Of a stretch of 64,000 nt of DNA, positions 43,401 to 57,611 are shown one piece after another. Each line of letters starts with the position of its first letter. Within the stretch, counting starts at the first letter, position 1. The stretch spans positions 22,425 to 86,424 of the forward strand of contig CALXVH010000002.1 in assembly GCA_944391965.1 (NCBI GenBank). The letters run 5' to 3'. Below the pieces are notes generated by a model, which saw nothing but the letters and a program-made list of their open reading frames with translations, had not been told where the DNA came from and did no database searches. Position numbers and translations under genes: made by a program. Source of the stretch: an uncultured Clostridia bacterium (lineage in GTDB: Bacteria > Bacillota > Clostridia > TANB77 > CAG-508).

Positions 43401-46400
43401 TATGCTTTGCTCCTCTTTTGGTTCTACATATGTATGCTCTGGCTCTTCTGGAACTTTCTTGTCTTCTCCATTTTGATTTATATATGCTGTATTCTTTATC
43501 TTTGTTCCATCTATTAATTTGTTTACTGTTACTTTAAACTCTACTACTTTTTCTGCTCCTACTCCAATTGTTACATTTATTCCGTTTTGTAAGTCTGTTG
43601 CTGTTTTTGTGCTGTCTGCAACATTGTCTATCTTTACTGAACCTTCTACAAATGTTGTTCCTGTTGGGACTGTATCTTTTATTATTGCTGTTCCTTCTCT
43701 TGTTCCGTCATTTCTTACTCTTATTCTGTATGTTATTTCGTCCCCAAAGCGTACTTTACTTCCACTTGCTGGGTCTGATTCTTTATGTGCTGTTATATTT
43801 GCTTTTGTTACATTTGTTGTTACTTCATTTGTTGGCTCATTATCTACTGTTGCTTGGTTTGTTAATGTCTTACTGTATTCATTACTTGCTAATGTATCTA
43901 CTTTTCCTGCAAATACTACATCTATACTTCCATTTGCTGGTACCTCTACTGGTATTCCATTCTTTAAGTTTTGTTCTGTGTAAACTGTTCCTGTTTCTCC
44001 TACTTTTATTAATGTATCTTTATCAAATGTTATTCCTGCTGGCAATGTATCTCTTACTGTTACTGTTTTTGCTAGGTTTCCTTCATTTTTTATTCTTACT
44101 GTATATGTTACTTTTTCTCCTTCTATTGCTTCTGTTTTATCTACCAATTTTTCACTGCTAATTATCGCTTTATATATTGTACTTTCTTGGCTTCCTGTTA
44201 CTTCTTCACTTGTTTTCTCCGGTGTTAATAACTTAATATTTCCTTTTACATTATTAACAACTTTTTCTTGGTTCATATCTAAATCTACATATACTACTTT
44301 AAATGTCTTTGTAACATTTACTGTTCCATTACCTGTATAACTATTTATGTCTGATACGTTCTCTTTCCATGTAATTGTCTTGCTAGCTGAATCATATGTT
44401 CCACCTGCTAAATCTGATTTTGCCTCATCTATTGCATATGGAAGTGTATCTACGATTGTTACTTCTGCATTTCCTATATAGTCTGTTACATTTGCTGTAT
44501 ATGTTACAGTATAACTCATTTCTTGATTTGCTACTGTTATTCTGTCTGTTCCTGTTTTTGTTATGTTATTTGTCACACTTGGTGTTTTTAGCCTGTAGTA
44601 ATATATTACTACTATTTGGTCTTCTGTCATCGTTCCTGTTGCATTTGTTGGAGTTGTTACTAACTCATAATTTTGTGGAATATCTGTTGCTACTTGTGTT
44701 GTATAACTATCTCCTACTTTTCCATTTATTGTTACATCATTACTTAATTTTTCTGTTGTATTTTCTTTATAGTGGTGTACTAGTACTGATGTTGCTTTTA
44801 ATTTGTAGTAATATATTACTTCTATTGTATCTTTTGTCATAGTTCCACTAGCATTTGTTGGTGTAGATATAAGTTCATACATACTATTTACGTTATCTGC
44901 TGGTTTAGTTGCATAAATATCTCCAACAACTCCTGTTTGTGTAACATCATCTGCTGTTCCACCATCTTGTAATGGAACTTTATCTGTTGTTCCTTCTATA
45001 TAGTAGTGAACGATTACTTTGGCTGGTATTTTTTCAAATTCTACTACTACATGTTTATCTTCTGTCATATCAGTAAATTTATTTAAAATTACTGTTCCAT
45101 CATCTTCTGCTGTAAATTCTATAGATTCTCCATTTATTAGTATTTGTTTTACTTGATAATTTTCGTCAGGTACTGCAACTATATCATTTTGTGAATCTTC
45201 TCCATATATAACTGTTTCATATGGATTTTGATTTTGTCCAGATATAGTTCCTCCTGCTACATCTACCTCTTCTCCCATTTCGTTTGTTTCTTTATGGGTT
45301 TGTACAGCAGTTGTTACTTCTACTTTTTTAGCTTTATAGTAATATGTTACTACAACTCCATCTTTAGTATATATTCCATTTGCATTTTCAGGAGTTATAG
45401 AAAGTTCATATTTAGGATTTAATTCTTCTGGTGTTAATGCTACTGTTGTGTATTCTGTTCCTATTTCTCCTTTAGTTATTACATCTTGTGCAAGTTCGCC
45501 TGATGCTAGTGGTACTTGTTCGTTTGTACCTTCAATATAATGGTGTACAGTTAATGGAACTTGTTTTTTAACATAATAATATGTAATAACTTGTTCTTCT
45601 TGTTTAAATGTTCCACTTGCGTTATCAGGAATTACATATTCTCCATCTACTTGTTTTAATTCATATTCTTCTAAATCCATATGTGGAGCTGTTGTATAGC
45701 TTTCACCAATTGTTCCTGCAATGTGTTCATCTTCTGCAACTTTTGTTTGTGTACCATCTATATAATGATGTACTAAAACACTTGAAGCAGTATTACTGAA
45801 TGTTACTACTATATGTTTATTTGTTTGCATATTTGTAAATTGTGGCATTGTGAATGACCCATCTTCAGCTGGTGTAAATTCATAATTTTCACCATTTACA
45901 GTTATCTTAACAATCTTGTAATTCTCATCTGGTACAATCTTAATTTCTTTTGTACTGTCTTTTCCATATTCAACTGTCTCGTATGGTGCTTCATCTTCAC
46001 CTGTGATTGTTCCACCTTTTACTCCATCCACTTCTTCTATATCTGTAGTTATTTGGAATTTCTTTAAATTATTTTCTATTGTTATTTCTGATGATTCTGG
46101 AACTTCTGGCGCTGTAATAATTTCTCCATAGTTAAATACAAATCCATCAGAATATTTAGATAAGCTTGCTCCTTGTGAATCTGCTGTATCTCCTTTTACT
46201 GTAGTACTATTAAAATATCCAACTGCAACAAATTCATTTTCATCTCTTTCTGCAACTCCTGTTACTTCGTCTAAATTATCACCTGTTACTTGTTTATACC
46301 ATGCTTGGTTTCCGTCAGAATCATATTTTATTACAAATCCATCAGAGTCACCAGAAATACTAGGTATTTCCCATGTTGTTTCTTCTTGGTTAAAGTCAAC

Positions 46401-49400
46401 TTGGCTACTATATGTATAACCACCTATCATATATCCACCATCTGTAGTTTTAGTTACACTTGTTAATACTTCATCCAATGTTCCTCTTATAAATTTGCTA
46501 CTATTAATTGTACTAGAGTTTATATCATATTCTATAATTATTCCGTCATAATTACCTTTTGTTTTTACTGTTTGTGCTGTTCCTGTGTAATTACCTACAA
46601 TTATAGCTTTTCCATTATCTAATCTTGCAACTGCATTTGCATTAAAGTCTAGTTCGCTTCCTGCAGTTACACTACCATTTGAGTATAAATCTATTCTACC
46701 TGTAGTTGTATCTGTTAATCCTTGGCTTACTATTATGACATCTTGGCTATTATATCCATCCATATCTGAAATTTGTACATTTGCACTTATTGTTGTTTCA
46801 CCATTTATGCTTCCATCTGTATTAGTATACTCTATAACTTTTGGATTTTCGCCAGTTGTAACACCTGCAACGATATTTCCTTCCAATTTTTGTGTTAATG
46901 CTGTTACATCATAATCTAATCCTTCTTGTGCAACTTCTTTAGCCCATTCATAACTTCCACTACTACTTAGTTTTATTACTATACCTTTTAAGTCGTTTGT
47001 AGTATTTGTTAAACCTGTACTTACTTCTCCTACTTGTAAATTTGTACCTGTAAAGCTTCCTCCTACTACATAACCACCATCATTTGTTTGAATTACTTTA
47101 TGTAATATAACTTCTCCTGATTCTGTATATACAGAATTTGCAATTTCCATATTACCTTCTTTGCTATATTTTGCAATAAAGCCAGAATAATATGAATCGT
47201 TTCCTTTTACATCTGCTAATCCATCATTGTTTAAATCAGCTTCTTTTGTAAAATATCCACTTGTTACAAATCCGTTATCTGTAGTTGATTCTACAGCTTC
47301 TACTTTATTCCACAAATCTCCTGCAACACTTGTATTAAATGATGTTCCAAATTCTGTTTCTTGTGCTTTACTTGCACCAATACCAAAATAATATGTTCTA
47401 TCTGCTTCATTTTCTGCAAGTTCGTAGCCTTCTGGTGCTTCTATTTCGGTTGCTTTATATAACCCTGCTTTTAACCCATAAGAAATTTCACCATTTTCGT
47501 CTGTTTTTACTACTGGGATTTGTGTATTCATTCCTTCTAGTTTTATATTTTTTACAAAACCAGAATCTAAACCTTCACTGTTAGAACCATCTGTTCTGTA
47601 TGTAAATGCAATTTTATATGTGCCTGCTTCTAATTCTTCTGTTACAGTTTCGAAACTTAAGTCGTTATAATCTGTAATAGAAGAATTTCCACCAATTTTA
47701 GTTGATGTTCCTCCTATTGTAGAATTATCCTTTGTATTTGTAATTGTATAATATACATAATCATAACTTGCACTTTCTGAAGATACTGCCCATTCAAAGC
47801 TAATATTTCCGTCTTTTTCTAGTGTAAATTCTTTTGATGTCATTGTACTTGTTTTGCTTGTTAGGCCAGAAATTCCACTTTGATATGTTCCATCCTCTAA
47901 CTTAGACCATGGATATGTTTCCTCATCTAATGGGAATGTAATACTACCTGCTCCAACGTTTTCTTCTAATGTACCTACAACATTTCCATTAATATCTTTT
48001 GCAAATCCTAATTCATTATAATTTTCATCTATTTCTTTTATAACAAATTTAGCATTTTGAATTGGAAGTTTTGTTGCCCCATCTATTTTTGTTATTTTAA
48101 ATAATGGCTCATCTTCGAATTCTAAGTTTATAGTATTATCTTGTACACTACTATTACGTAAGAAATTGTCTCCTAATACTTCTAATTCTAAAGCTCCTTC
48201 TGTATTTCTTTTTACTCTAAATTGTAGTTCTCTAGAATCTAGCGCATATCCTTCTGGTGGAGTAATTTCTTGAAGTGTATATACTCCAGTAATGTTCTTT
48301 CCTTCTACATATTCGTAAAGGTTTGGAATTGTGAGTATTCCTGTATCATCTGTTGTATATGTTGCTCCTTTTTCGTCAATTCCTTCGCCTGTTATTTTAT
48401 ATTGTGCACCTTTTAATGTTGTGTCTTCTTCTTTTGCAAATTTCTTTACAGTAACTTGGTATGTAGGTATTTTTTCGTTTGTAAGTTCTGCTGTTACAGT
48501 ATCTTGTGCATCTAACCCTGTTACACCTGTTCCTGTTGTAACTTGTGAAGTACTATTAAAGCTTCCACTTGTAACTACAAACTCTAATTTTCCAGAATTA
48601 TTTACAACTTTAAATTTAACTGGTGTTTCGTTTACATAGTAATCTTTAGCCTCTGTTTCTGTTAATGTATATTCTACATCATGAGAAAGTCCTGTTAATG
48701 TTAAAGTTCCTTCTTTATTTGTTGCAACTGTAATACCATTTCCTAGTCCTTCTCCCTCTAGCTTATACTTTACACCTGCTAAAAGACTGCTATCTGCACC
48801 ATCTTTTTTAGTTAAAATAACTTTATATTTTGGTGTATTTTCTACTTTAAAGTTTAGTATTCCTCTAGAGTCTGCTGTTGCTTGTGTAATGCTATATTCT
48901 TTTAAAGAATCTTGACCTTCTAGAATTTGTAATACTAACTTATCATCTTGTACTGTTACTTTGAATTTAACTTCTGTTTCGTTCTTTTCGTATGAACCTG
49001 GTGTACGAATTTCTTTTAATATATATGTTTTATCAACAAATAAATTTTGAATTGTAAATGTTCCAGAATTATTTGTTGTTCCTAGTTTTGTTTCATCTTC
49101 GCCTTCTGCTGTTATACTAAATGTTGCTCCTTGTACAGGTACTGTAGTATCTTCTTTTACCTTTTGCATATTGAAATGATATTTTCTTTCTATTCTAAAT
49201 CCTAGTTTTGTTGTTTCTGTTTGTGTTTTAAATTTTCCTTCTGCTGTATCTAGGCAGAAATATACTGCGTGTGCACTATATGAAACATCATTATAGCTTA
49301 CTGTACTTGGTACTTTTATTTGATATGTAAATACTCTATTTTCTTTTACATTTAGTACATAATCGCCTAAATCAATTAGATATGTTTTTACTTTAGAAAA

Positions 49401-52010
49401 GTCTGGTGTAGTTGTCCAACCATTTTCGCCATCATTTAAGTCTGTTGTTGGATTTTCTTTTTCTGAATAATACACTGTAACTTTATCTTTCATATCTTCT
49501 GGTACTGTTATTCCACCATCTACCATTTGTGTAGTATAGTTTGAACCTAGGTCTGTTCCATTTATGGAGAAAGTATTTCCTTTAAATGGGATTTTTCCTA
49601 ATATGCTAACTTCGCTTATTGTTCCAGAATAATTATTTGTTACACTTACATTTACTGTAGCTGTATCTGCTTCTGTTTTGTCTATTGTTGCAATTTGTGG
49701 TGCAACTGCTGTTTCGCCTGCTTCATTATAATTTGTAGCTTGTTGATTTGTTAAAAGTGAACTTGGTGCTACTATATTTAATGTATCTGTTGCATAATTA
49801 ACATTCTCTGTTACATTTTCGTCACCATCTACATCATATATATCTGCTGTTGTATTTTTATAATTATTGCAGAATTCGTTATATGCATATAGTTTTACAC
49901 TTTTGGATTGTGTTACAGATCTTGGATCTGCTGTTAAGTTTGTATTAATTGTAATTGTATAATTTGCTTCGTTTTCGTTTTCTGTTTCTATTTTAATAAA
50001 TTTCTTTCCGTCTTGTTCTACTATTTCGTATGCTAATAGTTTTACACTAGAGTTAGAAATATTTACACTATTTATTTCTACATCTAAAACTTCTTCTGGT
50101 AATTCTACTAAAAATCTACCATTTGTCCAACCTTTCATATTGTAATAATCATTACGTGTAGTAATAGTTAAGTCTATATCTTTTTCTGTATTTTGAGTTC
50201 CTATTGTATCTCTATTTACTGTAATGCTTGCAACTGATATTGGTTCTTCATAACGAGCATTTGCAGTATCATCATTTATTTTTGTATATTCTGTACTTCC
50301 TTCTATTTTTACATTTCCTGTTAAATATGTATATACATATTCTAATTTATCAAATTCTTCTTTTGTAAATGTTGATGTTAAAACATTATCATCTATCTCT
50401 TTAATATTGTATACATAGAAACTAGCATTTTTATTTGCTTTACTTGTTTCAACTCTTATATGTTTTACTGGTTCTTCATACATATATGGTGATGAACTAC
50501 TATAATTATTCCAATCTTCTTTTGTAAATGTATGTATTTCTTCTCCTGTTTCATCATTTATAACTTTTATGTATCCATCTTCACCTAATGTATTTTCTAC
50601 ATTTGAAAAATATATACCAGTATTTTTTGTATAGTCTGACATATTAAAATATGTTCCTTCTGTATTTAAAAATCTATCTGTATATGGTGTATTAGTTTCT
50701 TTCATTTGGATAGAATCTACATTTATTTGATCTCCTGTATATGCATACCATCTTACTTCGTATAAATCTTCTGTTTCTTCTGCTGTTTCATTATATATTT
50801 TTAGAGGTTCTTCTTTAGATATTATATAATTATAATCATAACTTCTATATTTTCCAATTGTTACATCAAATCTTGCTACACTTCCTTCTGGCTTTCTCCA
50901 TAGAAATGTTATATTTCTTTCTGCTATATTTGATTGTATTGGATTTTGGAATTCGTCATTTGGATTGTTAAATCCTTCATAATATGCTTTTACTGGAACT
51001 TGTAAGCTTAATGTATCTCCTGTTAAGCTTTCGTATAGTTCATATGGATATGTTACTTTAAAATTAAATGTATTATAGTCTGATACTGTTTTTGTAACTA
51101 TTCCTGCTTCGTTTATAGAGGCTTCTCTTGTAATTGTGAAGTTTCCTGTTTCTTCGTCATATTCAAAATTTACATCACTAGAAGTTAATTCTACACTTGT
51201 TGGTTTATATCCATTTACTGTTGGTATTGTTCCTTCTAAAACTGCTTTTTTTAGTATTAAATCGTCTGTTGTTTCTCTTGTTGTTACACTAAAGTTTAAT
51301 GTTATATTTTCTTTATTTTCGTCTGTTATTTCTTCTATATTTTGTGTACCTGTATAGTTATAGATACTTGCTGTAACACTTCCATACCAATCCACATTAA
51401 AATCTACTGTTTTACTTATTTGTGTTTCAGTTCCGTCATCTGCTATATGTTTACCAGTAAGTACTACACTGTTTACTTGGCTATATTTATTTGTATCATT
51501 TCCAAAATTAGAGGCATTTACTGTACCATATATTAATTTTTGTGTTCCGTTATTTACATCTTTTAATGCGATTTCTGTTGTATTATTTGATATATAGTTT
51601 TGTTTTATAACATTATCTTCTACTATTGCTGTAGATAGGTTCATATTAGATGTTTTTATAGTTATTTTTCCATCTACTAATTTACCATTTGTTAGTACAT
51701 TTAGGTTCATGTATAGTGTATCTGTTTTATTTATATCCCTACACATTCCACGTACTTGTTCTGCGTAACCATCTCCGTCTAAGTCACGCAAAAAGAACGC
51801 ATCAAATTGAACATAGTCTGTATTTGGTACCTTTTCGTCACCTTCTTGTACTTGTTCATATTCCATGCTTTTTTGTATTTCTGGGTCTGCTAATAATTTA
51901 GCTTTTTGGTTTTGTGTATTAACCAGCAGTGCAACTACTGTTATTATTGCTGTTACTACTGCTAATACACTAATTGATAATGTTATCTTTTTCGTTCGTT
52001 TCCCTTTCAT
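40443..52010 (-). CDS. Giant multidomain cell-surface adhesin (3855 aa)
   Basis: N-terminal signal/anchor. Repeated SpaA/Cna-B-like modules (e.g. VQGATFSITAEGE...YILKEIRTPGSYE). SBBP-like beta-propeller repeats (DGGYVVGGSFTG, DGFVIKYDSDGNQAW). Listeria-Bacteroides-type repeats (GGTITGEDEAPYETVEYGKDS...). About 15 MucBP-like repeats (VxVHYxxxGT...YxT....GYxL...GT......VxYYY). DUF11-like repeats (VTYTVRIKNEGN...VRDTLPAGITF). C-terminal hydrophobic helix plus a KRQKKKINKK tail. Confidence 0.85.
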   Translation of the reverse strand: MKGKRTKKITLSISVLAVVTAIITVVALLVNTQNQKAKLLADPEIQKSMEYEQVQEGDEKVPNTDYVQFDAFFLRDLDGDGYAEQVRGMCRDINKTDTLYMNLNVLTNGKLVDGKITIKTSNMNLSTAIVEDNVIKQNYISNNTTEIALKDVNNGTQKLIYGTVNASNFGNDTNKYSQVNSVVLTGKHIADDGTETQISKTVDFNVDWYGSVTASIYNYTGTQNIEEITDENKENITLNFSVTTRETTDDLILKKAVLEGTIPTVNGYKPTSVELTSSDVNFEYDEETGNFTITREASINEAGIVTKTVSDYNTFNFKVTYPYELYESLTGDTLSLQVPVKAYYEGFNNPNDEFQNPIQSNIAERNITFLWRKPEGSVARFDVTIGKYRSYDYNYIISKEEPLKIYNETAEETEDLYEVRWYAYTGDQINVDSIQMKETNTPYTDRFLNTEGTYFNMSDYTKNTGIYFSNVENTLGEDGYIKVINDETGEEIHTFTKEDWNNYSSSSPYMYEEPVKHIRVETSKANKNASFYVYNIKEIDDNVLTSTFTKEEFDKLEYVYTYLTGNVKIEGSTEYTKINDDTANARYEEPISVASITVNRDTIGTQNTEKDIDLTITTRNDYYNMKGWTNGRFLVELPEEVLDVEINSVNISNSSVKLLAYEIVEQDGKKFIKIETENENEANYTITINTNLTADPRSVTQSKSVKLYAYNEFCNNYKNTTADIYDVDGDENVTENVNYATDTLNIVAPSSLLTNQQATNYNEAGETAVAPQIATIDKTEADTATVNVSVTNNYSGTISEVSILGKIPFKGNTFSINGTDLGSNYTTQMVDGGITVPEDMKDKVTVYYSEKENPTTDLNDGENGWTTTPDFSKVKTYLIDLGDYVLNVKENRVFTYQIKVPSTVSYNDVSYSAHAVYFCLDTAEGKFKTQTETTKLGFRIERKYHFNMQKVKEDTTVPVQGATFSITAEGEDETKLGTTNNSGTFTIQNLFVDKTYILKEIRTPGSYEKNETEVKFKVTVQDDKLVLQILEGQDSLKEYSITQATADSRGILNFKVENTPKYKVILTKKDGADSSLLAGVKYKLEGEGLGNGITVATNKEGTLTLTGLSHDVEYTLTETEAKDYYVNETPVKFKVVNNSGKLEFVVTSGSFNSTSQVTTGTGVTGLDAQDTVTAELTNEKIPTYQVTVKKFAKEEDTTLKGAQYKITGEGIDEKGATYTTDDTGILTIPNLYEYVEGKNITGVYTLQEITPPEGYALDSRELQFRVKRNTEGALELEVLGDNFLRNSSVQDNTINLEFEDEPLFKITKIDGATKLPIQNAKFVIKEIDENYNELGFAKDINGNVVGTLEENVGAGSITFPLDEETYPWSKLEDGTYQSGISGLTSKTSTMTSKEFTLEKDGNISFEWAVSSESASYDYVYYTITNTKDNSTIGGTSTKIGGNSSITDYNDLSFETVTEELEAGTYKIAFTYRTDGSNSEGLDSGFVKNIKLEGMNTQIPVVKTDENGEISYGLKAGLYKATEIEAPEGYELAENEADRTYYFGIGASKAQETEFGTSFNTSVAGDLWNKVEAVESTTDNGFVTSGYFTKEADLNNDGLADVKGNDSYYSGFIAKYSKEGNMEIANSVYTESGEVILHKVIQTNDGGYVVGGSFTGTNLQVGEVSTGLTNTTNDLKGIVIKLSSSGSYEWAKEVAQEGLDYDVTALTQKLEGNIVAGVTTGENPKVIEYTNTDGSINGETTISANVQISDMDGYNSQDVIIVSQGLTDTTTGRIDLYSNGSVTAGSELDFNANAVARLDNGKAIIVGNYTGTAQTVKTKGNYDGIIIEYDINSSTINSSKFIRGTLDEVLTSVTKTTDGGYMIGGYTYSSQVDFNQEETTWEIPSISGDSDGFVIKYDSDGNQAWYKQVTGDNLDEVTGVAERDENEFVAVGYFNSTTVKGDTADSQGASLSKYSDGFVFNYGEIITAPEVPESSEITIENNLKKFQITTDIEEVDGVKGGTITGEDEAPYETVEYGKDSTKEIKIVPDENYKIVKITVNGENYEFTPAEDGSFTMPQFTNMQTNKHIVVTFSNTASSVLVHHYIDGTQTKVAEDEHIAGTIGESYTTAPHMDLEEYELKQVDGEYVIPDNASGTFKQEEQVITYYYVKKQVPLTVHHYIEGTNEQVPLASGELAQDVITKGEIGTEYTTVALTPEELNPKYELSITPENANGIYTKDGVVVTYYYKAKKVEVTTAVQTHKETNEMGEEVDVAGGTISGQNQNPYETVIYGEDSQNDIVAVPDENYQVKQILINGESIEFTAEDDGTVILNKFTDMTEDKHVVVEFEKIPAKVIVHYYIEGTTDKVPLQDGGTADDVTQTGVVGDIYATKPADNVNSMYELISTPTNASGTMTKDTIEVIYYYKLKATSVLVHHYKENTTEKLSNDVTINGKVGDSYTTQVATDIPQNYELVTTPTNATGTMTEDQIVVIYYYRLKTPSVTNNITKTGTDRITVANQEMSYTVTYTANVTDYIGNAEVTIVDTLPYAIDEAKSDLAGGTYDSASKTITWKENVSDINSYTGNGTVNVTKTFKVVYVDLDMNQEKVVNNVKGNIKLLTPEKTSEEVTGSQESTIYKAIISSEKLVDKTEAIEGEKVTYTVRIKNEGNLAKTVTVRDTLPAGITFDKDTLIKVGETGTVYTEQNLKNGIPVEVPANGSIDVVFAGKVDTLASNEYSKTLTNQATVDNEPTNEVTTNVTKANITAHKESDPASGSKVRFGDEITYRIRVRNDGTREGTAIIKDTVPTGTTFVEGSVKIDNVADSTKTATDLQNGINVTIGVGAEKVVEFKVTVNKLIDGTKIKNTAYINQNGEDKKVPEEPEHTYVEPKEEQSISKNGTATIDSLNGEITYNINYTARITDYSGRATVKLIDTLPYAIDEARSDLAGGTYDAQAQTITWEEPVENIQITEEKEITVNKTIKVVYKDVSPDVVSIKNVVTGHIEYETPVMTSDEVTANATTTTGFTVNIPVSKVWEDDSNKLGQRPTKVVFKLHGSDGSEYTKEVAKPGTAGSTTTQDSTNPNKWNDIFENLPKYDENKQEIVYTLTEEEKTEGDLRYYDSIVIDKTVTNTNKYGKVTVHHYIMNTDGSTTTTRVPDANGTEIADVVIEGKEGTSYETEAATNINEKYELVAEKLPANATGTIEKYNEEKPQEVIYYYRLKPAKVLINYLEKDEDTDDSNNVVLSSQEQITGYVDDSYNTDTDHRKETIEKDGKTYTLVSDSGNKTGNMTLQDITVTYYYLQNTKATVRYVERNPETHEIVKDLEEPTVKEGLVGDKFVTNSKDFVGYKLVESPEKTTIEMTKEEQTLIYYYEPVYTGLIENHIDDKTGKVLYTESHDVQVGEDYDIPSKEFEGYDLVESKLPENAEGTMGEELVTVNYYYIKKAVLEVNYIDKLTGEPLADQVVDDTKHEGDSYTTEEKVFDGYDMIEIQGNKEGTMIVETDEQGNITNNRTIVTYYYAKKSAGVEEHHIDLRTGEELEEPTLHQGHIGDEYNIPSKDFLSYQVVTVDEEGNSMLPTNSIGTMTEEKIVVNYYYNQPAKVIVHYVEKATGKEIEETNPETGELQNSQVLIEGQKDDDYTATAKEFEYYTLIEKPQEEQGKMKVEIVKDEEGNDVVNNTIELYYYYEAKPFNIGVDKEITGIIVNGERREPTNGKIEKVEIYRKSTEETSVQVEYKIKVSNTGEVSGNATIEENIPEGMRLANNDGTWEEQEGKLIKVIPELGAGETKEYTVLLNWEQTGENMGEKTNEVKLVGTGNVPGFVDNNDKDNTANANVIISVETGELPIGLIIALVGLVGLETVTLRYAVVLTKRQKKKINKK

Positions 52011-52044: not shown

Positions 52045-53322
52045 TTAATTTTTTGATTTGTTATAATTTTGAATTTTTTTGTTGCTTAGTATTACTTTAT
52101 ATAAAGTGCGGAACGACAACCGTACGTAGCTGAAGTAGTTAGTCGGACCGTAGTAGTTACGATAGTCTGCTGGATATCTGTCGCCATCTTTCTTGTAATG
52201 GCCACCCCTACACACCCTGTTGATGGAACTGCTGGCCTCCATTGTCCAGTCCCACACATTACCTGCTAGGTCGTATATGTTATTTGCTTTCGTGTATTCT
52301 GTACTTCCTGTTGGAATTCTTGTACTACTTCCCTCATTTTTCGTTGCTGTACTTCCACTACTATTTACATATTCAAATGTCGCATTGTTATAGTTTCCCC
52401 AACTTGTTGAGTCATCTGCTATTTGCTCTTTTGTTTTACTTCCTGTCTCTATTAACCACATCAACGTTCTATCCCATTGGTTTCCCCATATCATTCCTGT
52501 TTCTACATTTGTATTGTCTCCTTTAATGTTTTTACATCTTTTATACATGTTGTACCATGTTTGAAAATTTATATCTGTGTTTCCTTTTTGTACTACTGGT
52601 GTTTCTTGGTTTATATTTCCTGTTTCATATCTTCCTATATAGAATCCTCCATACTTTTCTACACTTACTATCATATTATTAAATTCTTTTTCTAGCTGAT
52701 TTAAAAATTCATGGGTTGTTTTGGCTCCTAGTCCTCTAGTTTTTAAAGTTGAATCATAATCATAGCTTTTTACTATATCCGGCTCTCTATAACTCGTTTT
52801 ACTACTTATTGTCATTACTCCATCGCTTTCGCTCCAGTTATATGGTTTCGTTCCTGTTATTTCATCATAACTACTACTCATACTTGACGAAAACTGATAT
52901 TGTTTTCCCCATTTCTTTCCATTGGCATCAGTTCCATAGAATTTACTTATATCTGGTACTGGTATCCACACATATTGGTTTCTACTTTTTTGTGCATCAG
53001 CTACATTGCTGTCTGTTACTTCTTCTTCTCCTTCGTATATTACATATCCTGTATCTATTTCATTTTCTCCTGCCACACTACTTCCTACATATCCGTTTGG
53101 TACTGGTACTTTATCTCCACTTGCATCTTCTTCTACGTGCATATGCTCATTATTTTCCAAATTTATGGCGTTTACAGTTGATTTTGTAGCTTGTAATACA
53201 GTACTATTCTCTTTTTTAGAAAATGCAAAAATTAAACTTGTTAAAACTACTATAACTGCTAATATTCCGCAAATTATGCATACCATTTTTCTATTTATTT
53301 GCTTTCTTGTTTTCTCAGCCAT
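52045..53322 (-). CDS. DGR target protein 1: membrane-anchored FGE-sulfatase/C-type-lectin-fold protein carrying VR1
   Basis: N-terminal TM helix (VCIICGILAVIVVLTSLIFAF). C-terminal GMIWGNQWDRTLMWL ... NIYDLAGNVWDWTMEA ... RVCRGGHY is the FGE/CLec hallmark. The last about 44 structured residues align to the TR. Confidence 0.85.
   Translation of the reverse strand: MAEKTRKQINRKMVCIICGILAVIVVLTSLIFAFSKKENSTVLQATKSTVNAINLENNEHMHVEEDASGDKVPVPNGYVGSSVAGENEIDTGYVIYEGEEEVTDSNVADAQKSRNQYVWIPVPDISKFYGTDANGKKWGKQYQFSSSMSSSYDEITGTKPYNWSESDGVMTISSKTSYREPDIVKSYDYDSTLKTRGLGAKTTHEFLNQLEKEFNNMIVSVEKYGGFYIGRYETGNINQETPVVQKGNTDINFQTWYNMYKRCKNIKGDNTNVETGMIWGNQWDRTLMWLIETGSKTKEQIADDSTSWGNYNNATFEYVNSSGSTATKNEGSSTRIPTGSTEYTKANNIYDLAGNVWDWTMEASSSINRVCRGGHYKKDGDRYPADYRNYYGPTNYFSYVRLSFRTLYKVILSNKKIQNYNKSKN
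52105..52237 (-). repeat. DGR variable region VR1
   Basis: 133 nt aligning without gaps to the TR. My hand count gives 27 mismatches, 19 at TR adenines (coding sense) and 8 elsewhere. Confidence 0.8.
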
Positions 53323-53366
53323 TTCAATTTCTCCTTTAAGAATCTTTTTAAGCTCTGTTGATTTTT

Positions 53367-53395
53367 ATTTTATTTATAAATAAATAACTTGTAAA
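53367..53395 (-). promoter_or_regulatory. Sigma-A-type promoter candidate for target gene 1
   Basis: The minus strand reads TTTACA, a 17-nt spacer, then TAAAAT, about 45 nt upstream of the start codon. The same element occurs upstream of target 2. Confidence 0.45.
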
Positions 53396-53512
53396 TGGCT
53401 GTATTTTCTATATTACAACGACATCATTAAAAACATGTTACGGATATACAAATTACGATTTTTCTATTGGCATCTTTACATTTTTTTATCTTTTATGTAT
53501 CAAAATGACTTT

Positions 53513-53767
53513 TTAATCTAAAAACTTAAAATTATATATTTCTATAATCTCAACTTGCATATTTTCTCTCAGTCTTCCTCTTAAAAAAAACTCTTCTAAA
53601 TCTTTTTGATATATGTAATCTGCTATGTTATCATACGCAAACACCTCTATTTCCGAATTATTTAATAACTTTGCTTTAAATAAAACTTTTGATTTTTCTT
53701 TACTATTTATTACAAATTTAAAATTTATATCACTTGTTCTTTTTACAAATAAAAAACATTCATTCAT
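53513..53767 (-). CDS. Small hypothetical protein (84 aa) conserved in both repeat copies
   Basis: ...SEIEVFAYDNIADYIYQKDLEEFFLRGRLRENMQVEIIEIYNFKFLD is about 85% identical to the ORF at 57396-57587. It vaguely recalls an OB-fold/SSB pattern. No clear RBS. Confidence 0.35.
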   Translation of the reverse strand: MNECFLFVKRTSDINFKFVINSKEKSKVLFKAKLLNNSEIEVFAYDNIADYIYQKDLEEFFLRGRLRENMQVEIIEIYNFKFLD

Positions 53768-53987
53768 AATTATTTGTTAAAATTCTTAGCAATTATTAAC
53801 TAAAATCATAAAACGATACTTTTTCCTAATCTTTTAGGAAAGGGCTTAAAATACATACTTTCGTCATACCTACCGGTATATATTTTAATGATTCATATTT
53901 ACCTAAAATAGGAAGGAATAAACCTCTTTAATATCTAATATTTCGCTGGACTACTTCCTTAAAACTAGCCATCTGGATTGATATTAG

Positions 53988-54120
53988 AGTGCTGCACGAC
54001 AACCGTCTGTTGCTATTGTTGTTAGTCGGATTGTTGTTGTTACGATTGTCTGCTGGATTGTTGTCGCCATTGTTGTTGTAATTGCCACCCCTATACGCCC
54101 TGTTGTTGGTACCGTTGGCC
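53988..54120 (-). repeat. DGR template repeat (TR)
   Basis: Starts 13 nt after the RT stop codon. In coding sense it reads gcc aac ggt acc aac aac agg ... aac aga cgg ttg tcg tgc agc act. My hand count gives about 51 adenines in 133 nt and 18 AAY codons in 44. It aligns to VR1 and VR2. Confidence 0.9.
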
Positions 54121-54133
54121 TTTTGGTCTATCC

Positions 54134-55144
54134 CTAATTTATATAAAAAAGTTTTTCTTCCAAATTCCTTGTATTTGCATATTTCATATAACCTAAATGT
54201 CCACATATAAATCTACTTGCTTCTTTACTACTCATATTGCCCTTTTGTACTTCTTTTTTTAAATATTTAACCTTTTGTTTAATAGCTTTTTTACCTCTGT
54301 CGCGTAGCTTTAAACGATATTCATTTATCTTGTATCCACAAAAATTTACTCCTTGATCACTTTTAAATATTTGGGTTTTGTCGTTTAATTCTAATTCCAA
54401 TTTTATTTTTAAATAATTTTTAATTTTTTCTAAAAGTTCAATGGCTTCTTTCTTTGTTTTTACAAATAAAATCGAATCATCCATATATCTAAAATAGTAT
54501 TTTACCTTAAGCTCGTGCTTTATATATTGGTCTATTTCGTTTAAGTATATATTTGCAAATATTTGCGAGGTATAATTACCTATCGGAAGTCCTTTTTTAC
54601 CTGAATTTGAATACACTATTTTTTCTAATAGTTCTACTAGTTTTTCTTCTTTTACTTTTCTTTTTAAAATATTCATTAAAATATCTTTATCTATATTCTG
54701 AAAATATTTTCGAATATCCATTTTTAAAATATAGTAATTTTGCCATATTCTTTTGCAATGCTTCATTGTATTTTGTACATCCATAGATGCTTTATGCATT
54801 CCTCTATTTTTTATACACGCATATGATGTATTTATAAATTGATTTACAAAATATCTATTTAAGAAACTATCTACTATCCATCTATGTACAATTCTATCCA
54901 TATATCGTGAAGCTTCTATTTTTCTTCTTTTAGGATACTGTATATAAAAAATTCTATATCCGCCATGTTTATAAGTTCCGTTTTTTAGCTGTTCATATAA
55001 CCATCTGATATATTCTTCTTGTTTTAGATTAAATAGAATTACTTCTTTTTTATAGTTTTTTCCTTTTCTAGAAAGTAAATGTGCTTTCATAAGATTGTCA
55101 TAAGTTAAATATTTATCAAATTCATGCCTTATTGTTTTTGCCAT
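54134..55144 (-). CDS. DGR-type reverse transcriptase
   Basis: 336 aa with RT motifs ILKMDIRKYFQNI (A), GLPIGNYTSQIFANIYLNEID (B, containing the DGR-specific [I/L/V]GxxxSQ), FRYMDDSILFV (C, YMDD) and VNFCGYKI (E). There are no intron-maturase or endonuclease extensions. Confidence 0.9.
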   Translation of the reverse strand: MAKTIRHEFDKYLTYDNLMKAHLLSRKGKNYKKEVILFNLKQEEYIRWLYEQLKNGTYKHGGYRIFYIQYPKRRKIEASRYMDRIVHRWIVDSFLNRYFVNQFINTSYACIKNRGMHKASMDVQNTMKHCKRIWQNYYILKMDIRKYFQNIDKDILMNILKRKVKEEKLVELLEKIVYSNSGKKGLPIGNYTSQIFANIYLNEIDQYIKHELKVKYYFRYMDDSILFVKTKKEAIELLEKIKNYLKIKLELELNDKTQIFKSDQGVNFCGYKINEYRLKLRDRGKKAIKQKVKYLKKEVQKGNMSSKEASRFICGHLGYMKYANTRNLEEKLFYIN

Positions 55145-55496
55145 AGTATTTTACTAAGCCTCCTATTATTTTTCCCATTTCGTATATTAGGCTCATGGCA
55201 TATTCGAATTTTTTCTTATCTATCCATGCGTTTTTACACATGATTCTTAACAAAATTCTTTGAACACTTAAATCTGCATCAATTTTATTGATACTTTTAA
55301 ACCTATCTTTTATTTCTATTTTGTTTAAGTACATTATGCCTTCTAACATCTTATACATAGAATTCTTGTATTCTGTTCCTATACTAAATTTTTCTGTTCT
55401 TGGAATTTTTAATATTACTTCTAGCATATATTCAATATATCTTTCGGATTTTGGAATTAATGTTAATTCATTTTCTTTTTTATTTAACTTTTCCAA
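55122..55496 (-). CDS. avd: Avd-like accessory variability determinant (four-helix-bundle family)
   Basis: 124 aa, helical and basic. It overlaps the RT start by 23 nt and the upstream gene by 17 nt. The pattern YIEYMLEVILKIPRTEKFSIGTEYKNSMYKMLEGIMYLN fits the Avd / 23S-rRNA-IVS protein family. The start appears to be TTG. Confidence 0.7.
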   Translation of the reverse strand: MEKLNKKENELTLIPKSERYIEYMLEVILKIPRTEKFSIGTEYKNSMYKMLEGIMYLNKIEIKDRFKSINKIDADLSVQRILLRIMCKNAWIDKKKFEYAMSLIYEMGKIIGGLVKYYGKNNKA

Positions 55497-55875
55497 GCTT
55501 TCTCACTCTTTCTAATATATCTTCTTCCTGTTCTTTTCTGTTTGTACAACTTGTACATTCTAAACAGTTTTTGGTTTCCTCAGTATTTTTACCTTTGTAT
55601 CTATATATTTCTTCTAATTCATCTTTTTCGTTTTTTATATATAAAATAAACGAATAGCCTAGTTTCTCTAACTTCTCTATATATTTCTCTACATTTTTTA
55701 CTAAAAATCCTACTTTACACAGTTCTTTTCGCATACAAGTTAGTTTTAAGCCTAATTCTTCATTTAAAATTATTGCATCTTTTCCTATTGCTACAAAAAA
55801 TATTCCATTTTTTGCTAATATTATTGTACCTTCATTTTCTTTTTGTATTTTTTCCACTTCTTGGACGAATTTCAT
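55480..55875 (-). CDS. MutS-domain-I-like small accessory protein with a C-terminal Cys cluster
   Basis: 131 aa. [33 protein letters not shown] aligns by eye to E. coli MutS [60 protein letters not shown] aligns to [26 protein letters not shown]. The tail is [12 protein letters not shown]. Confidence 0.65.
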   Translation of the reverse strand: [131 protein letters not shown]

Positions 55876-55971: not shown

Positions 55972-57213
55972 TTAATATAAAGTGCTGCACGACAACCGTA
56001 GGTAGCTAGCGCCGTCAGTAGGAACGTCGTTGCTACGATCGTCAGCTGGAACGTAGTCGCCATAGTTGCTGAAATTGCCACCCCTAGACGCCCTGTAGCC
56101 GGTACCGTAGGCCTCCATTGTCCAGTCCCTTACGTTTCCGACTAGGTCGTATATGTTATTTGCTTTCGTGTATTCTGTACTTCCTGTTGGAATTCTTGTA
56201 CTACTATTTTTGTTTTTCGTTGCTGTACTTCCACTATTATTTACATATTCAAATGTCGCATCGATATAGTTTCCCCAACTTGTTGAGTCATCTGCTATTT
56301 GCTCTTTTGTTTTACTTCCTGTTTCTATTAACCACATCAACGTTCTATCCCATTGGTTTCCCCATATCATTCCTGTTTCTACATTTGTATTGTCTCCTTT
56401 AATGTTTTTACATCTTTTATACATGTTGTACCATGTTTGACTACTTATATTTGTATTTCCTTTTTGTACTACTGGTGTTTCTTGGTTTATATTTCCTGTT
56501 TCATATCTTCCTATATAAAACCCTCCATATTTTTCTACACTTGCTACCATATTATTAAACTCTTTTTCTAACTGATTTAAAAATTCATGAGTTGTTTTGG
56601 CGCCTATTCCTAATGTTTTTAATCTTGAATCCATATCATAACCTGTACTACTATATTTTGCTACTACGTCTGGCTCTCTATAATTTGTTTTACTACTTAT
56701 TGTCATTACTCCATTGTTTTCGCTCCAATTATATGGCTTTGTTCCTGTTATTTCATCATAACTACTACTCGTACTTGACGAAAATGTATATATTTTTCCC
56801 CATTTCTTTCCATTGGCATCTGTTCCATAAAATTTACTTATATCTGGTACTGGTATCCACACATATTGGTTTCTACTTTTTTGTGCATCAGCTACATTGC
56901 TGTCTGTTACTTCTTCTTCTCCTTCGTATATTACATATCCTGTATCTATTTCATTTTCTCCTGCCACACTACTTCCTACATATCCGTTTGGTACTGGTAC
57001 TTTATCTCCACTTGCATCTTCTTCTACGTGCATATGCTCATTATTTTCCAAATTTATGGCGTTTACAGTTGATTTTGTAGCTTGTAATACAGTACTATTC
57101 TCTTTTTTAGAAAATGCAAAAATTAAACTTGTTAAAACTACTATAACTGCTAATATTCCGCAAATTATGCATACCATTTTTCTATTTATTTGCTTTCTTG
57201 TTTTCTCAGCCAT
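55972..57213 (-). CDS. DGR target protein 2: membrane-anchored FGE-sulfatase/C-type-lectin-fold protein carrying VR2
   Basis: A paralog of target 1 with an identical N-terminal ~140 aa, NIYDLVGNVRDWTMEA and RASRGGNF. I place the start at the ATG at 57213 (MAEKT), 8 nt after AAGGAG, as in copy A. Confidence 0.85.
   Translation of the reverse strand: MAEKTRKQINRKMVCIICGILAVIVVLTSLIFAFSKKENSTVLQATKSTVNAINLENNEHMHVEEDASGDKVPVPNGYVGSSVAGENEIDTGYVIYEGEEEVTDSNVADAQKSRNQYVWIPVPDISKFYGTDANGKKWGKIYTFSSSTSSSYDEITGTKPYNWSENNGVMTISSKTNYREPDVVAKYSSTGYDMDSRLKTLGIGAKTTHEFLNQLEKEFNNMVASVEKYGGFYIGRYETGNINQETPVVQKGNTNISSQTWYNMYKRCKNIKGDNTNVETGMIWGNQWDRTLMWLIETGSKTKEQIADDSTSWGNYIDATFEYVNNSGSTATKNKNSSTRIPTGSTEYTKANNIYDLVGNVRDWTMEAYGTGYRASRGGNFSNYGDYVPADDRSNDVPTDGASYLRLSCSTLY
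55981..56113 (-). repeat. DGR variable region VR2
   Basis: 133 nt aligning without gaps to the TR. My hand count gives 26 mismatches, 24 at TR adenines. The 3'-terminal 19 nt (acggttgtcgtgcagcact) are identical to the TR. Confidence 0.9.
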
Positions 57214-57251
57214 TTTCATTTCTCCTTCAAGATTTTATATTATATATATTT

Positions 57252-57280
57252 ATTTTATTTATAAATAAATAACCTGTAAA
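57252..57280 (-). promoter_or_regulatory. Sigma-A-type promoter candidate for target gene 2 and possibly the msl-avd-RT-TR transcript
   Basis: The minus strand reads TTTACA, a 17-nt spacer, then TAAAAT. Confidence 0.45.
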
Positions 57281-57395
57281 TGGCTGTATTTTCTATATTA
57301 CAAAAACATTGTTAAACTTTATTACGGGTATACAAATTACGATCTTTTTATTTTCTTTTTTACATTTTCTTGTTTTTTTTGTATCAAACCATTTT

Positions 57396-57611
57396 TTATT
57401 CTAAAAACTTAAAATTATATATTTCTATAATTTCAACTTTCATATTTTCTTGTAGCTTACCCCTTAAGAAAAACACTTCTAAATCTTTTTGATATATATA
57501 ATCTGCTATGTTATCATATATAAACACCTCTATTTCCGAATCATTTAATAACTTTGTTTTAATAAAACTTTTGATTTTTCTTTGCAATTTATTACAAATT
57601 TAAAATTTATA
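57396..57611 (-). pseudogene. Frameshifted and truncated copy of the small ORF at 53513-53767
   Basis: It has a 1-nt deletion relative to copy A (gctttaaataaaac versus gttttaataaaac on the plus strand). The upstream part (NINFKFVINCKEKSK) is in a different frame and is preceded by a stop codon. Only a 63 aa TTG-initiated ORF remains. Confidence 0.5.

What the first reader, a model, noticed from the sequence alone, without database searches (positions are those of the whole stretch)
55480..55875. MutS mismatch-binding-domain-like accessory protein encoded inside the DGR operon
The 131 aa ORF immediately upstream of avd, overlapping it by 17 nt, aligns by eye to MutS domain I over about 60 residues. 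The aligned segments are [29 protein letters not shown] and [25 protein letters not shown]. The Phe of the mismatch-intercalating F-x-E motif appears to be retained (FFV), but the Glu is replaced by Ala. A CxxCxxC cluster follows at the C-terminus. A mismatch-recognition module inside a system that deliberately creates A:N mismatched heteroduplexes suggests a function. It might shield or mark the cDNA:VR heteroduplex from host mismatch repair, or help resolve it. From memory, a MutS-like (MSL) accessory ORF has been noted in a large DGR survey, mainly in Firmicutes, but I cannot verify that here and I know of no functional study.
Basis: partly seen in the sequence, partly recalled or inferred. 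Interest (0 to 1): 0.75.

Follow-up and report, generated by a model that had tools for sequence, protein, structure and literature searches.

The report
MutS-like accessory gene of a DGR
This small gene encodes a stand-alone copy of the mismatch-binding domain of the repair protein MutS inside a gene-diversifying retroelement; the gene family (MSL) has been named since 2017, but nobody has tested what it does.

Summary
The 131-aa ORF at 55480..55875 (-) matches Pfam MutS_I above threshold (E 6.7e-9). Its AlphaFold model superposes on MutS/MSH domain I (Taq MutS, rmsd 2.1 Å). It lies between a variable target gene and avd-RT-TR of a real DGR with two VRs. This order recurs in about 20 of 25 related Clostridia genome loci and in relatives of 39-43% identity.

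Two details need correcting. The Phe wedge is F26, and the Glu position is Val28, not Ala; no family member has Glu there. The conserved cysteines are C47, C53, C107 and C110, a probable zinc site, not the CxxCxxC triple.

The family is already published as the DGR accessory gene MSL (Wu et al. 2017; Bacteroides Msl, 2024). I found no functional study.

My best mechanism is inferred, not shown. MSL would act as a non-signalling cap on the mismatched cDNA:VR heteroduplex and keep host MutS from reverting it. Host MutS is known to cut DGR output 5-10 fold.

A conserved 84-aa SSB-like gene just after RT/TR was noticed in passing. It may belong to the same cDNA-handling kit.

Verdict: a new member of a known kind, of moderate interest.

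The parts
55480..55875 (-). msl: 131-aa stand-alone MutS domain I-like protein. A GGAGG Shine-Dalgarno sequence lies about 10 nt upstream of the ATG.
   Evidence: dN/dS 0.11-0.20
55792..55800 (-). Codons F26-F27-V28, equivalent to the E. coli MutS F36-Y37-E38 wedge motif. The Phe is kept and the Glu is replaced by Val.
   Evidence: Alignments. Family counts: Phe 227/228; position 28 is V/I/T/N and never Glu. Codons read directly.
55717..55737 (-). C47-x5-C53-K54 knuckle in the beta3-beta4 hairpin. The hairpin is shortened by 3-4 residues relative to MutS.
   Evidence: C47 228/230, C53 232/234, K54 231/234. Alignment to Taq MutS. Strands 45-49 and 52-58.
55546..55557 (-). C107-x2-C110 in the C-terminal extension. 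This is the proposed second half of a Cys4 (zinc) site. C104 (55564-55566) is not conserved.
   Evidence: C107 140/144 and C110 137/143 of residues present, C104 about half. 188 of 218 full-length members carry both knuckles. AF2 pLDDT is low (about 60) here.
55122..55496 (-). avd, overlapping the msl stop by 17 nt.
   Evidence: Pfam bAvd 1.6e-18; NCBIfam DivGenRetAVD 2.9e-20; PHROG 'Avd protein of DGR'
54134..55144 (-). DGR reverse transcriptase, 336 aa.
   Evidence: RVT_1 1.6e-20; group-II-like RT hit
53985..54121 (-). Template repeat (TR), adenine-rich on the coding strand.
   Evidence: Repeat family D3; alignment A3; 28 of 36 TR/VR1 differences fall at TR adenines
55972..57219 (-). Target gene 1 (415 aa, N-terminal TM segment, weak FGE-sulfatase/C-type-lectin-like C-terminus). 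VR1 lies at 55978-56114.
52045..53322 (-). Target gene 2 (425-aa paralogue). VR2 lies at 52102-52238.
53513..53767 (-). 84-aa SSB-like OB-fold gene just downstream of RT/TR. It is conserved in this DGR class and is a possible further accessory gene.
   Evidence: Synteny in 24 of 31 loci. Orthologues hit Pfam SSB at E 1e-5, 25.7-25.8 bits against a cut-off of 26. AF2 pLDDT 90. Foldseek top hits are SSBs; 3koj_B has TMq 0.79.
57396..57587 (-). Truncated 63-aa paralogue of the SSB-like gene, upstream of target gene 1.
57252..57280 (-). Promoter-like site upstream of target gene 1. It has a duplicate at 53367-53395 upstream of target gene 2. No terminator-like site lies between target 1 and the RT.
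   Evidence: consensus match only

Best explanation
Identity (about 0.95 confidence): this is the MSL (MutS-like) accessory gene of a chromosomal DGR in an uncultured gut Clostridium. The protein is a minimal MutS mismatch-binding domain (domain I). It lacks domains II-V, so it has no connector, clamp, ATPase or dimerisation parts. It carries a C-terminal extension, and four family-invariant cysteines (C47, C53, C107, C110) probably tie that extension to the beta-hairpin through a zinc ion.

Mechanism (inferred, about 0.4 confidence):
1. The RT-Avd complex makes adenine-mutagenised cDNA from the TR RNA.
2. The cDNA pairs with the VR sense strand, probably on the lagging-strand template. This gives a heteroduplex with up to about 28 A-site mismatches in about 130 bp.
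3. MSL is made from the same transcript as Avd and RT, and its translation is coupled to that of Avd. It inserts its invariant Phe wedge at the mismatches as MutS does.
4. MSL lacks the Glu that authorises repair and all ATPase and clamp machinery, so it cannot signal. It acts as a local, non-signalling cap that keeps host MutS off the heteroduplex until replication fixes the new VR.
5. Because the cap is delivered at the DGR, the cell would not become a general mutator.

Shown here: fold, motif status, conservation, synteny and operon layout. Inferred: DNA or mismatch binding, zinc binding, competition with MutS, and local delivery.
For: MutS_I homology by sequence and fold.

The Phe aligned with MutS F36/F39 is invariant (227/228) across a family that diverges to about 27% identity. 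Position 28 is never Glu.

PDB entries 1wbb, 1wb9 and 1wbd are titled as E. coli MutS E38A, E38T and E38Q mutants in complex with a G.T mismatch. Loss of the Glu therefore does not abolish mismatch binding.

The gene is under purifying selection. It keeps the order target-MSL-avd-RT in about 20 of 25 genome loci and in relatives of 39-43% identity. It overlaps avd, and no terminator-like site was found in the operon.

Literature:
- Deleting mutS raises Bacteroides DGR mutagenesis 5-10 fold in an all-or-nothing manner (10.1101/2024.11.15.621889).
- The E. coli reconstitution points to cDNA annealing on the lagging-strand template. Two synthetic E. coli DGR systems include a dominant-negative MutL, and a third study deleted mutS to preserve substitutions.

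The window has strongly negative GC skew on the + strand, and its genes are mostly on the - strand. The targets are therefore probably co-directional with replication.

The same DGR class also carries a conserved SSB-like gene, which fits a cDNA-handling kit.
Against: No binding or genetic data exist.

An isolated MutS domain I is not known to bind DNA tightly on its own (my knowledge). In MutS much of the affinity comes from the clamp domains.

MSL is near neutral (pI 8.2), unlike Avd and RT (pI 9.5-9.8).

One free mismatch among about 28 might be enough for MutS to trigger repair, so a stoichiometric cap may leak.

MSL occurs in only about 4% of surveyed DGRs (PMC5758913). The two constitutively active Bacteroides DGRs lack it, while the three Msl-bearing ones were nearly silent, which was attributed to low transcription.

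Confidence: 0.4

Rival explanations
1. MSL is a nucleic-acid-handling subunit of the RT-Avd-TR RNA particle and has nothing to do with host mismatch repair. It would use the MutS-I fold and the Phe wedge to hold kinked, branched or mispaired RNA:cDNA or cDNA:DNA structures. Examples are helping the RT extend past A:N mispairs or helping the cDNA anneal to the VR despite many mismatches.
For: MSL always co-occurs with avd (PMC5758913). The two genes overlap, so their translation is probably coupled. One database protein (P0246) reads as an MSL-Avd fusion. The neighbouring SSB-like gene suggests a set of cDNA-handling factors.
Against: From my knowledge, RT plus Avd suffice for adenine-mutagenic cDNA synthesis in the Bordetella phage system, and most DGRs lack MSL. 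The P0246 fusion comes from a single 1.6-kb contig and may be a frameshift artefact. Nothing explains why a mismatch-recognition fold in particular would be recruited.
Confidence: 0.25
2. MSL is a protein decoy. It binds a host repair or replication protein (MutL, the beta clamp, or MutS itself) and titrates it away, lowering mismatch repair without touching DNA.
For: MSL mimics part of MutS. Dominant-negative repair proteins such as MutL E32K are used as helpers in two synthetic E. coli DGR systems.
Against: From my knowledge of MutS-MutL structures, MutL contacts the connector and ATPase domains of MutS, not domain I. A decoy would not need the strictly invariant DNA-wedge Phe. A diffusible inhibitor would make the host a general mutator.
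Confidence: 0.1
3. MSL marks the heteroduplex and recruits or redirects host repair. The parental VR strand, not the cDNA strand, is then excised and resynthesised, converting both strands to the new sequence.
For: It would explain keeping a mismatch sensor rather than a simple DNA binder.
Against: MSL has no ATPase, and it lacks the connector and ATPase domains that contact MutL (my knowledge), so there is no obvious route to signalling. In Bacteroides host MutS lowers DGR output rather than raising it, although that DGR lacks Msl.
Confidence: 0.1
4. The ORF is a decaying fragment of a mutS gene or a chance ORF with no function.
For: The ORF is short and AT-rich. Some relatives are truncated or fused to neighbouring genes.
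Against: dN/dS is 0.11-0.20. There are 682 clusters at 50% identity. Motifs are invariant, synteny is fixed, the ribosome-binding site is strong, and the fold is predicted with confidence.
Confidence: 0.02

Closest known systems
MSL (MutS-like) accessory proteins of DGRs: Architecture D of Wu et al., Nucleic Acids Res 2017/2018 (PMC5758913), and Msl of Bacteroides DGRs (bioRxiv 10.1101/2024.11.15.621889)
   Same: A small protein (131 aa, within the published 112-283 aa range) with MutS homology. It is encoded inside a DGR cassette that also has avd and has no HRDC gene. Its pI is near neutral (8.2, against the published 7.2 +/- 1.7).
   Different: Nothing contradicts membership. Some features found here are not mentioned in the passages of those papers that I read, and I could not check the rest of the papers or the supplements. 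These features are the Cys4 signature, the invariant Phe with a position that is never Glu, and the conserved SSB-like gene after RT/TR. Direct alignment to the 16 published MSL sequences was not possible because the supplement is not held.
MutS domain I (Pfam PF01624), the mismatch-binding domain of bacterial MutS and eukaryotic MSH proteins
   Same: The fold is the same (rmsd about 2 Å). The signature G-x-F-[FY]-x-x-x-G-x-D-A matches MutS G-D-F-Y-E-x-F-x-x-D-A. The Phe wedge is kept.
   Different: MSL is stand-alone, with no connector, lever, clamp or ATPase domain. The Glu of Phe-x-Glu is replaced by Val, Ile or Thr. The beta3-beta4 loop is 3-4 residues shorter and is bracketed by two Cys. 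There is an extra C-terminal CxxC and a helix.
MutS E38A/T/Q mutants (PDB 1wbb, 1wb9, 1wbd)
   Same: They have the Phe wedge without the Glu. The crystal titles show that they still hold a G.T mismatch. From my knowledge of the literature on these mutants, such proteins bind mismatches but are defective in licensing repair.
   Different: They are full-length ATPase dimers made by engineering, not natural single-domain proteins.
Dominant-negative MutL E32K plus a single-strand annealing protein (pORTMAGE module) used to make DGRs work in E. coli
   Same: This is a functional analogy only. It pairs a mismatch-repair blocker with a single-stranded-DNA-handling protein alongside RT and Avd. Here the natural cassette carries MSL plus an SSB-like protein.
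   Different: The proteins are unrelated, and the analogy is inferred. MSL has not been shown to inhibit repair, and the SSB-like protein has not been shown to bind cDNA.

Membership tests
MutS domain I (PF01624) | Profile match above Pfam's gathering score | tested here: met
   36.4 bits against 20.6, E 6.7e-9. 47 of 50 family members also match.
MutS domain I (PF01624) | Domain I fold | tested here: met
   AF2 pLDDT 84.6. The top 50 Foldseek PDB hits are all MutS/MSH; 1ewq_B has rmsd 2.1 Å over 95 columns.
MutS domain I (PF01624) | Phe of the Phe-x-Glu mismatch wedge | tested here: met
   F26 aligns with E. coli F36 and Taq F39. It is Phe in 227 of 228 family sequences.
MutS domain I (PF01624) | Glu of the Phe-x-Glu motif | tested here: not met
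   The position is Val28. Across 293 family sequences it is V, I, T, N and a few others, with one Asp and no Glu.
MutS mismatch-repair protein (full-length MutS/MSH) | Connector, lever, clamp and ABC ATPase domains; dimer | tested here: not met
   The protein is 131 aa. The only Pfam match above threshold is MutS_I. NCBIfam MutS equivalog models score 16-17 bits against cut-offs of 480-640.
DGR accessory protein MSL (Wu et al.) | Small protein (112-283 aa) with homology to MutS | tested here: met
   131 aa
DGR accessory protein MSL (Wu et al.) | Encoded within a bona fide DGR cassette (RT, TR, VR with adenine-specific differences) | tested here: met
   RT and avd. One TR and two VRs. 28 of 36 TR/VR1 differences fall at TR adenines.
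DGR accessory protein MSL (Wu et al.) | Co-occurs with avd, and the cassette has no HRDC gene | tested here: met
   avd is adjacent and overlapping. No HRDC hit among the cassette ORFs that were scanned.
DGR accessory protein MSL (Wu et al.) | Sequence homology to the published MSL set | not testable with these tools
   The supplementary sequences are not held. Membership rests on the shared definition, not on a direct alignment.
Zinc-binding Cys4 module (proposed feature of this family) | Four conserved Cys arranged as two knuckles and close in space; metal bound | tested here: inconclusive
   Conservation and spacing are met: Cx5C plus CxxC in 188 of 218 full-length members. Spatial proximity could not be measured because no coordinates are returned and pLDDT is about 60 at aa 101-120. 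Metal content needs experiment.
SSB / OB-fold (the 84-aa neighbour gene) | Pfam SSB match and OB fold | tested here: inconclusive
   The fold criterion is met: pLDDT 90, 3koj_B TMq 0.79, and the top hits are SSBs. The sequence criterion is not met: the window copy has no Pfam hit, and orthologues score 25.7-25.8 bits against a cut-off of 26.

The most novel reading that the evidence does not exclude
MSL, probably together with the neighbouring SSB-like protein, is a retroelement-encoded, locally acting anti-mismatch-repair and cDNA-protection module. It would be a natural single-domain 'blind MutS' that caps the mismatches the DGR has just made, so the host's own MutS cannot erase them. As far as I know it would be the first natural protein inhibitor of mismatch recognition that works by mimicking the sensor domain. 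It would also be a compact tool for raising the efficiency of DGR, retron or oligonucleotide editing without making cells mutators.
Probability: 0.3. Interest if true: 0.75.

Novelty: new member of a known kind. Interest (0 to 1): 0.42.

Why it matters
How mutagenised cDNA gets into the VR, and how it survives mismatch repair, is still the unsolved step of DGR biology. Recent work shows that host MutS removes most DGR events, and engineers disable repair by hand. A DGR-encoded MutS look-alike is the obvious natural candidate for handling that conflict.

This analysis gives concrete handles for experiments:
- an invariant Phe wedge with the licensing Glu absent throughout the family;
- a Cys4 signature;
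- translational coupling to Avd;
- a co-conserved SSB-like gene.

If the cap model is right, MSL would be a small, portable way to protect designed heteroduplexes during in vivo editing. If it is wrong, the strictly conserved wedge still points to a structure-specific DNA or RNA:DNA binding step in retrohoming that current models lack.

Tried and rejected
- Single-sequence phmmer against PDB sequences gave MutS only at E 1.2. The narrow 54-sequence family profile gave no MutS hit at all. I judged this a lack of profile diversity, not a lack of homology, because the wider profile A4 hits Taq MutS at 2.2e-4 and both Pfam and Foldseek agree.
- tblastn of MSL against GenBank phages and PLSDB plasmids found nothing, and so did a scan of IMG/VR viral contigs. 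This clade therefore looks chromosomal and Clostridial. Foldseek against BFVD does find small stand-alone MutS-I proteins in gut phage metagenomes.
- PHROGs has no family for MSL.
- The supplement of Wu et al. with the MSL sequences is not held. I could not align this protein to the published set or ask whether the Bacteroides and Legionella MSLs share the Cys4 signature.
- Model coordinates are not exposed. Cys-Cys distances and exposure of the Phe could not be measured.
- I rejected the 'chance ORF or mutS fragment' reading.
- Host mutS and mutL could not be looked for.

Full report
**What is there.** The ORF at 55480..55875 on the minus strand encodes 131 aa. It has a GGAGG ribosome-binding site about 10 nt upstream of its ATG. 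Its last 17 nt overlap the TTG start of the next ORF, 55122..55496. That ORF is an Avd (Pfam bAvd 1.6e-18; NCBIfam DivGenRetAVD 2.9e-20; PHROG 'Avd protein of DGR'). Avd in turn overlaps a 336-aa reverse transcriptase at 54134..55144 (RVT_1 1.6e-20).

Directly after the RT lies an adenine-rich template repeat at about 53985-54121. It has two 80%-identical copies at the 3' ends of two paralogous genes: VR1 at 55978-56114 in 55972..57219, and VR2 at 52102-52238 in 52045..53322. Of 36 TR/VR1 differences, 28 fall at TR adenines. This is therefore a genuine DGR with two targets.

All parts are on one strand. There is a promoter-like site upstream of target 1, and no terminator-like site lies between target 1 and the RT. 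The wider window carries housekeeping genes (PcrA/UvrD helicase, SpoIIE) and has about 27% G+C. A genome-collection locus from an uncultured gut Clostridium MAG encodes an identical MSL (L001). The element is chromosomal.

**Is it MutS-like?** Yes, by every test that has power.
- Pfam MutS_I matches aa 3-88 at E 6.7e-9, 36.4 bits against a cut-off of 20.6.
- 47 of 50 diverse relatives match the same model on their own, the best at 4.7e-13.
- A profile of those relatives finds Taq MutS among PDB sequences at E 2.2e-4.
- An AlphaFold2 model built on 54 homologues has mean pLDDT 84.6 and pTM 0.71. Its 50 best Foldseek matches in the PDB are all MutS, MSH2, MSH3 or MSH6 chains, aligned over their N-terminal domain. 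The best is Taq MutS 1ewq_B at E 4e-6, TM 0.64 (normalised to the query) and rmsd 2.1 Å over 95 columns.

Weak results from the single sequence and from a narrow family profile reflect low diversity, not absence of homology. The protein stops after domain I, so there is no connector, lever, clamp or ATPase domain. NCBIfam's full-length MutS models score only 16-17 bits.

**Motifs.** Two independent alignments agree on the register. One is hhalign against the E. coli N-terminus, which I recalled from memory and checked against the known F36/E38 numbering. The other is HMMER against the Taq MutS chain held in the PDB. Both give F26 = F36/F39, F27 = Y37/Y40 and V28 = E38/E41.

The Glu is replaced by Val, not Ala. 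Across 240 aligned family sequences, 227 of the 228 with a residue at position 26 have Phe. Position 28 is V, I, T, N or a few other residues, and never Glu.

The invariant cysteines are:
- C47 and C53, which bracket a beta-hairpin loop 3-4 residues shorter than in MutS and are followed by the invariant K54;
- C107 and C110, in the C-terminal extension.

Of 218 full-length members, 188 carry both knuckles. Most exceptions are frameshifted or fused products. I read this as a Cys4 zinc site that staples the extension onto the small domain. That is an inference: AF2 confidence is low there (about 60), and I could not obtain coordinates.

**Is it a real, DGR-linked gene?** dN/dS against five orthologues is 0.11-0.20. 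The family is large. It has 94 close homologues and 682 clusters at 50% identity with E <= 1e-3, 228 of them at <= 1e-10. Those listed are small proteins.

In 25 loci from reference genomes, all uncultured Clostridia or Lachnospiraceae from guts, about 20 show target-MSL-avd-RT in the same order. The rest are contig ends, fragments or rearranged. Relatives of only 39-43% identity (P0272, P0243) have the same order.

**What is already known.** Wu et al. (PMC5758913) named this accessory gene MSL. They found it in 16 of 372 DGRs, at 112-283 aa with near-neutral pI, always with avd and never with HRDC. They defined Architecture D for these DGRs and noted one in the Legionella DGR. Reviews list it. 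Three Bacteroides DGRs encode Msl. A 2026 preprint cites the MutS-like homologues as a reason to suppress mismatch repair in a synthetic system. I found no experiment on MSL itself.

The relevant biology has advanced in other respects.
- Deleting mutS in Bacteroides raised VR mutagenesis 5-10 fold with an unchanged mutation pattern. The authors interpreted this as all-or-nothing repair of the heteroduplex.
- The E. coli reconstitution indicates that the cDNA pairs with the lagging-strand template.
- Two synthetic E. coli DGR systems add a dominant-negative MutL and a single-strand annealing protein. A third study deleted mutS to help preserve substitutions.

**Most likely mechanism (inferred).** MSL keeps the one residue that MutS inserts at a mismatch. 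It lacks the Glu and everything needed to signal. PDB entries for MutS E38A, E38T and E38Q are titled as complexes with a G.T mismatch, so loss of the Glu is compatible with mismatch binding. From my own knowledge of that literature, such mutants bind but fail to license repair.

MSL is translated with Avd from the DGR transcript. I therefore favour a local, non-signalling cap on the cDNA:VR heteroduplex that excludes host MutS until replication fixes the change. The window's strong negative GC skew on the + strand, and its mostly minus-strand genes, suggest that the targets are co-directional with replication. That fits the lagging-strand annealing model.

Several points weigh against this. 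An isolated domain I is not known to bind DNA well. MSL is not basic (pI 8.2). One uncovered mismatch could suffice for MutS. Most DGRs manage without MSL. The active Bacteroides DGRs lack it.

I put the cap model at about 0.4. The rivals are:
- an RNP or cDNA-handling cofactor unrelated to repair, about 0.25, supported weakly by a possible MSL-Avd fusion protein, P0246;
- a protein decoy for MutL, the clamp or MutS, about 0.1;
- a recruiter that redirects repair in favour of the cDNA strand, about 0.1;
- a functionless remnant, about 0.02.

**A related thing noticed.** Just after RT/TR lies an 84-aa ORF, 53513..53767 (-). A truncated paralogue sits upstream of target 1 (57396..57587). Homologues of this ORF follow the RT in 24 of the 31 loci examined, including the distant ones. 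The window copy has no Pfam hit. Two orthologues hit the SSB family just under threshold, at E 1e-5 and 25.7-25.8 bits against 26. The AF2 model is confident (pLDDT 90.1), and its best PDB matches are bacterial SSB OB-folds such as 3koj_B (TM 0.79) and the small SSB of Mycoplasma pneumoniae.

In the library available to me I found no paper describing an SSB-like DGR accessory gene. MSL plus an SSB-like protein next to RT-Avd resembles the helper pair used in two synthetic E. coli systems: a repair blocker plus a single-strand annealing protein. This is an analogy, not evidence.

**Verdict.** The identification as a DGR MSL gene is secure. The family is already named in the literature, so this is a new member of a known kind. 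The function remains open. The shielding idea is plausible and now sharply testable, but nothing computed here tests it.

Noticed in passing
window 53513-53767 (-); truncated paralogue 57396-57587 (-): An 84-aa SSB-like OB-fold gene lies directly after RT/TR. Homologues follow the RT in 24 of 31 related DGR loci. The AF2 model has pLDDT 90, and its best PDB matches are bacterial SSBs (3koj_B, TM 0.79). Pfam SSB is just under threshold in orthologues and absent for the window copy. It may be an undescribed DGR accessory gene; I found no paper on it in the library.
   Followed up: partly
window 52045-53504 and 55972-57388 (-): The module 'small SSB-like ORF + upstream region + target gene' is duplicated on either side of the MSL-avd-RT-TR core. 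The repeats are 84-93% identical, and this includes the promoter-like site.
   Followed up: partly
window 52102-52238 (VR2), compared with TR 53985-54121: VR2 differs from TR at about 14 non-adenine positions, including two in the conserved 3' end (GTCGTGCAGCACT in TR and VR1, GTCGTTCCGCACT in VR2). VR1 differs almost only at TR adenines. VR2 may be a less active or drifting target.
   Followed up: partly
window 40443-52010 (-): A giant 3855-aa predicted cell-surface protein with many repeated domains and a C-terminal membrane anchor lies immediately downstream of DGR target gene 2.
   Followed up: no
proteins P0080-P0082, P0110, P0136, P0140, P0246: Database relatives include products in which the MSL N-terminus reads into RT, into the SSB-like protein, or into Avd. 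These suggest recurrent deletions or frameshifts inside such cassettes. The MSL-Avd fusion (P0246, a single 1.6-kb contig) could be a Rosetta-stone hint or an artefact.
   Followed up: partly
L016 313-3045: This variant locus has target gene, a TR-like adenine-rich repeat, an intact MSL and the SSB-like gene, but no avd or RT within about 4.7 kb downstream. The contig ends just upstream of the target gene, so avd and RT may lie beyond the contig end.
   Followed up: no
BFVD hits A0A8S5PPT8, A0A8S5L9N2, A0A8S5PL02, A0A1V0SJ64: Small stand-alone MutS domain I proteins (74-153 aa) exist in gut phage metagenomes and in Klosneuvirus. Whether they sit in DGRs or share the Cys4 signature is unknown.
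   Followed up: no
window 1-64000: The window has very low G+C (23-31%) and strongly negative GC skew on the + strand throughout (-0.17 to -0.29), with most genes on the minus strand. The whole window therefore appears to lie on one replichore, with genes co-directional with replication.
   Followed up: partly
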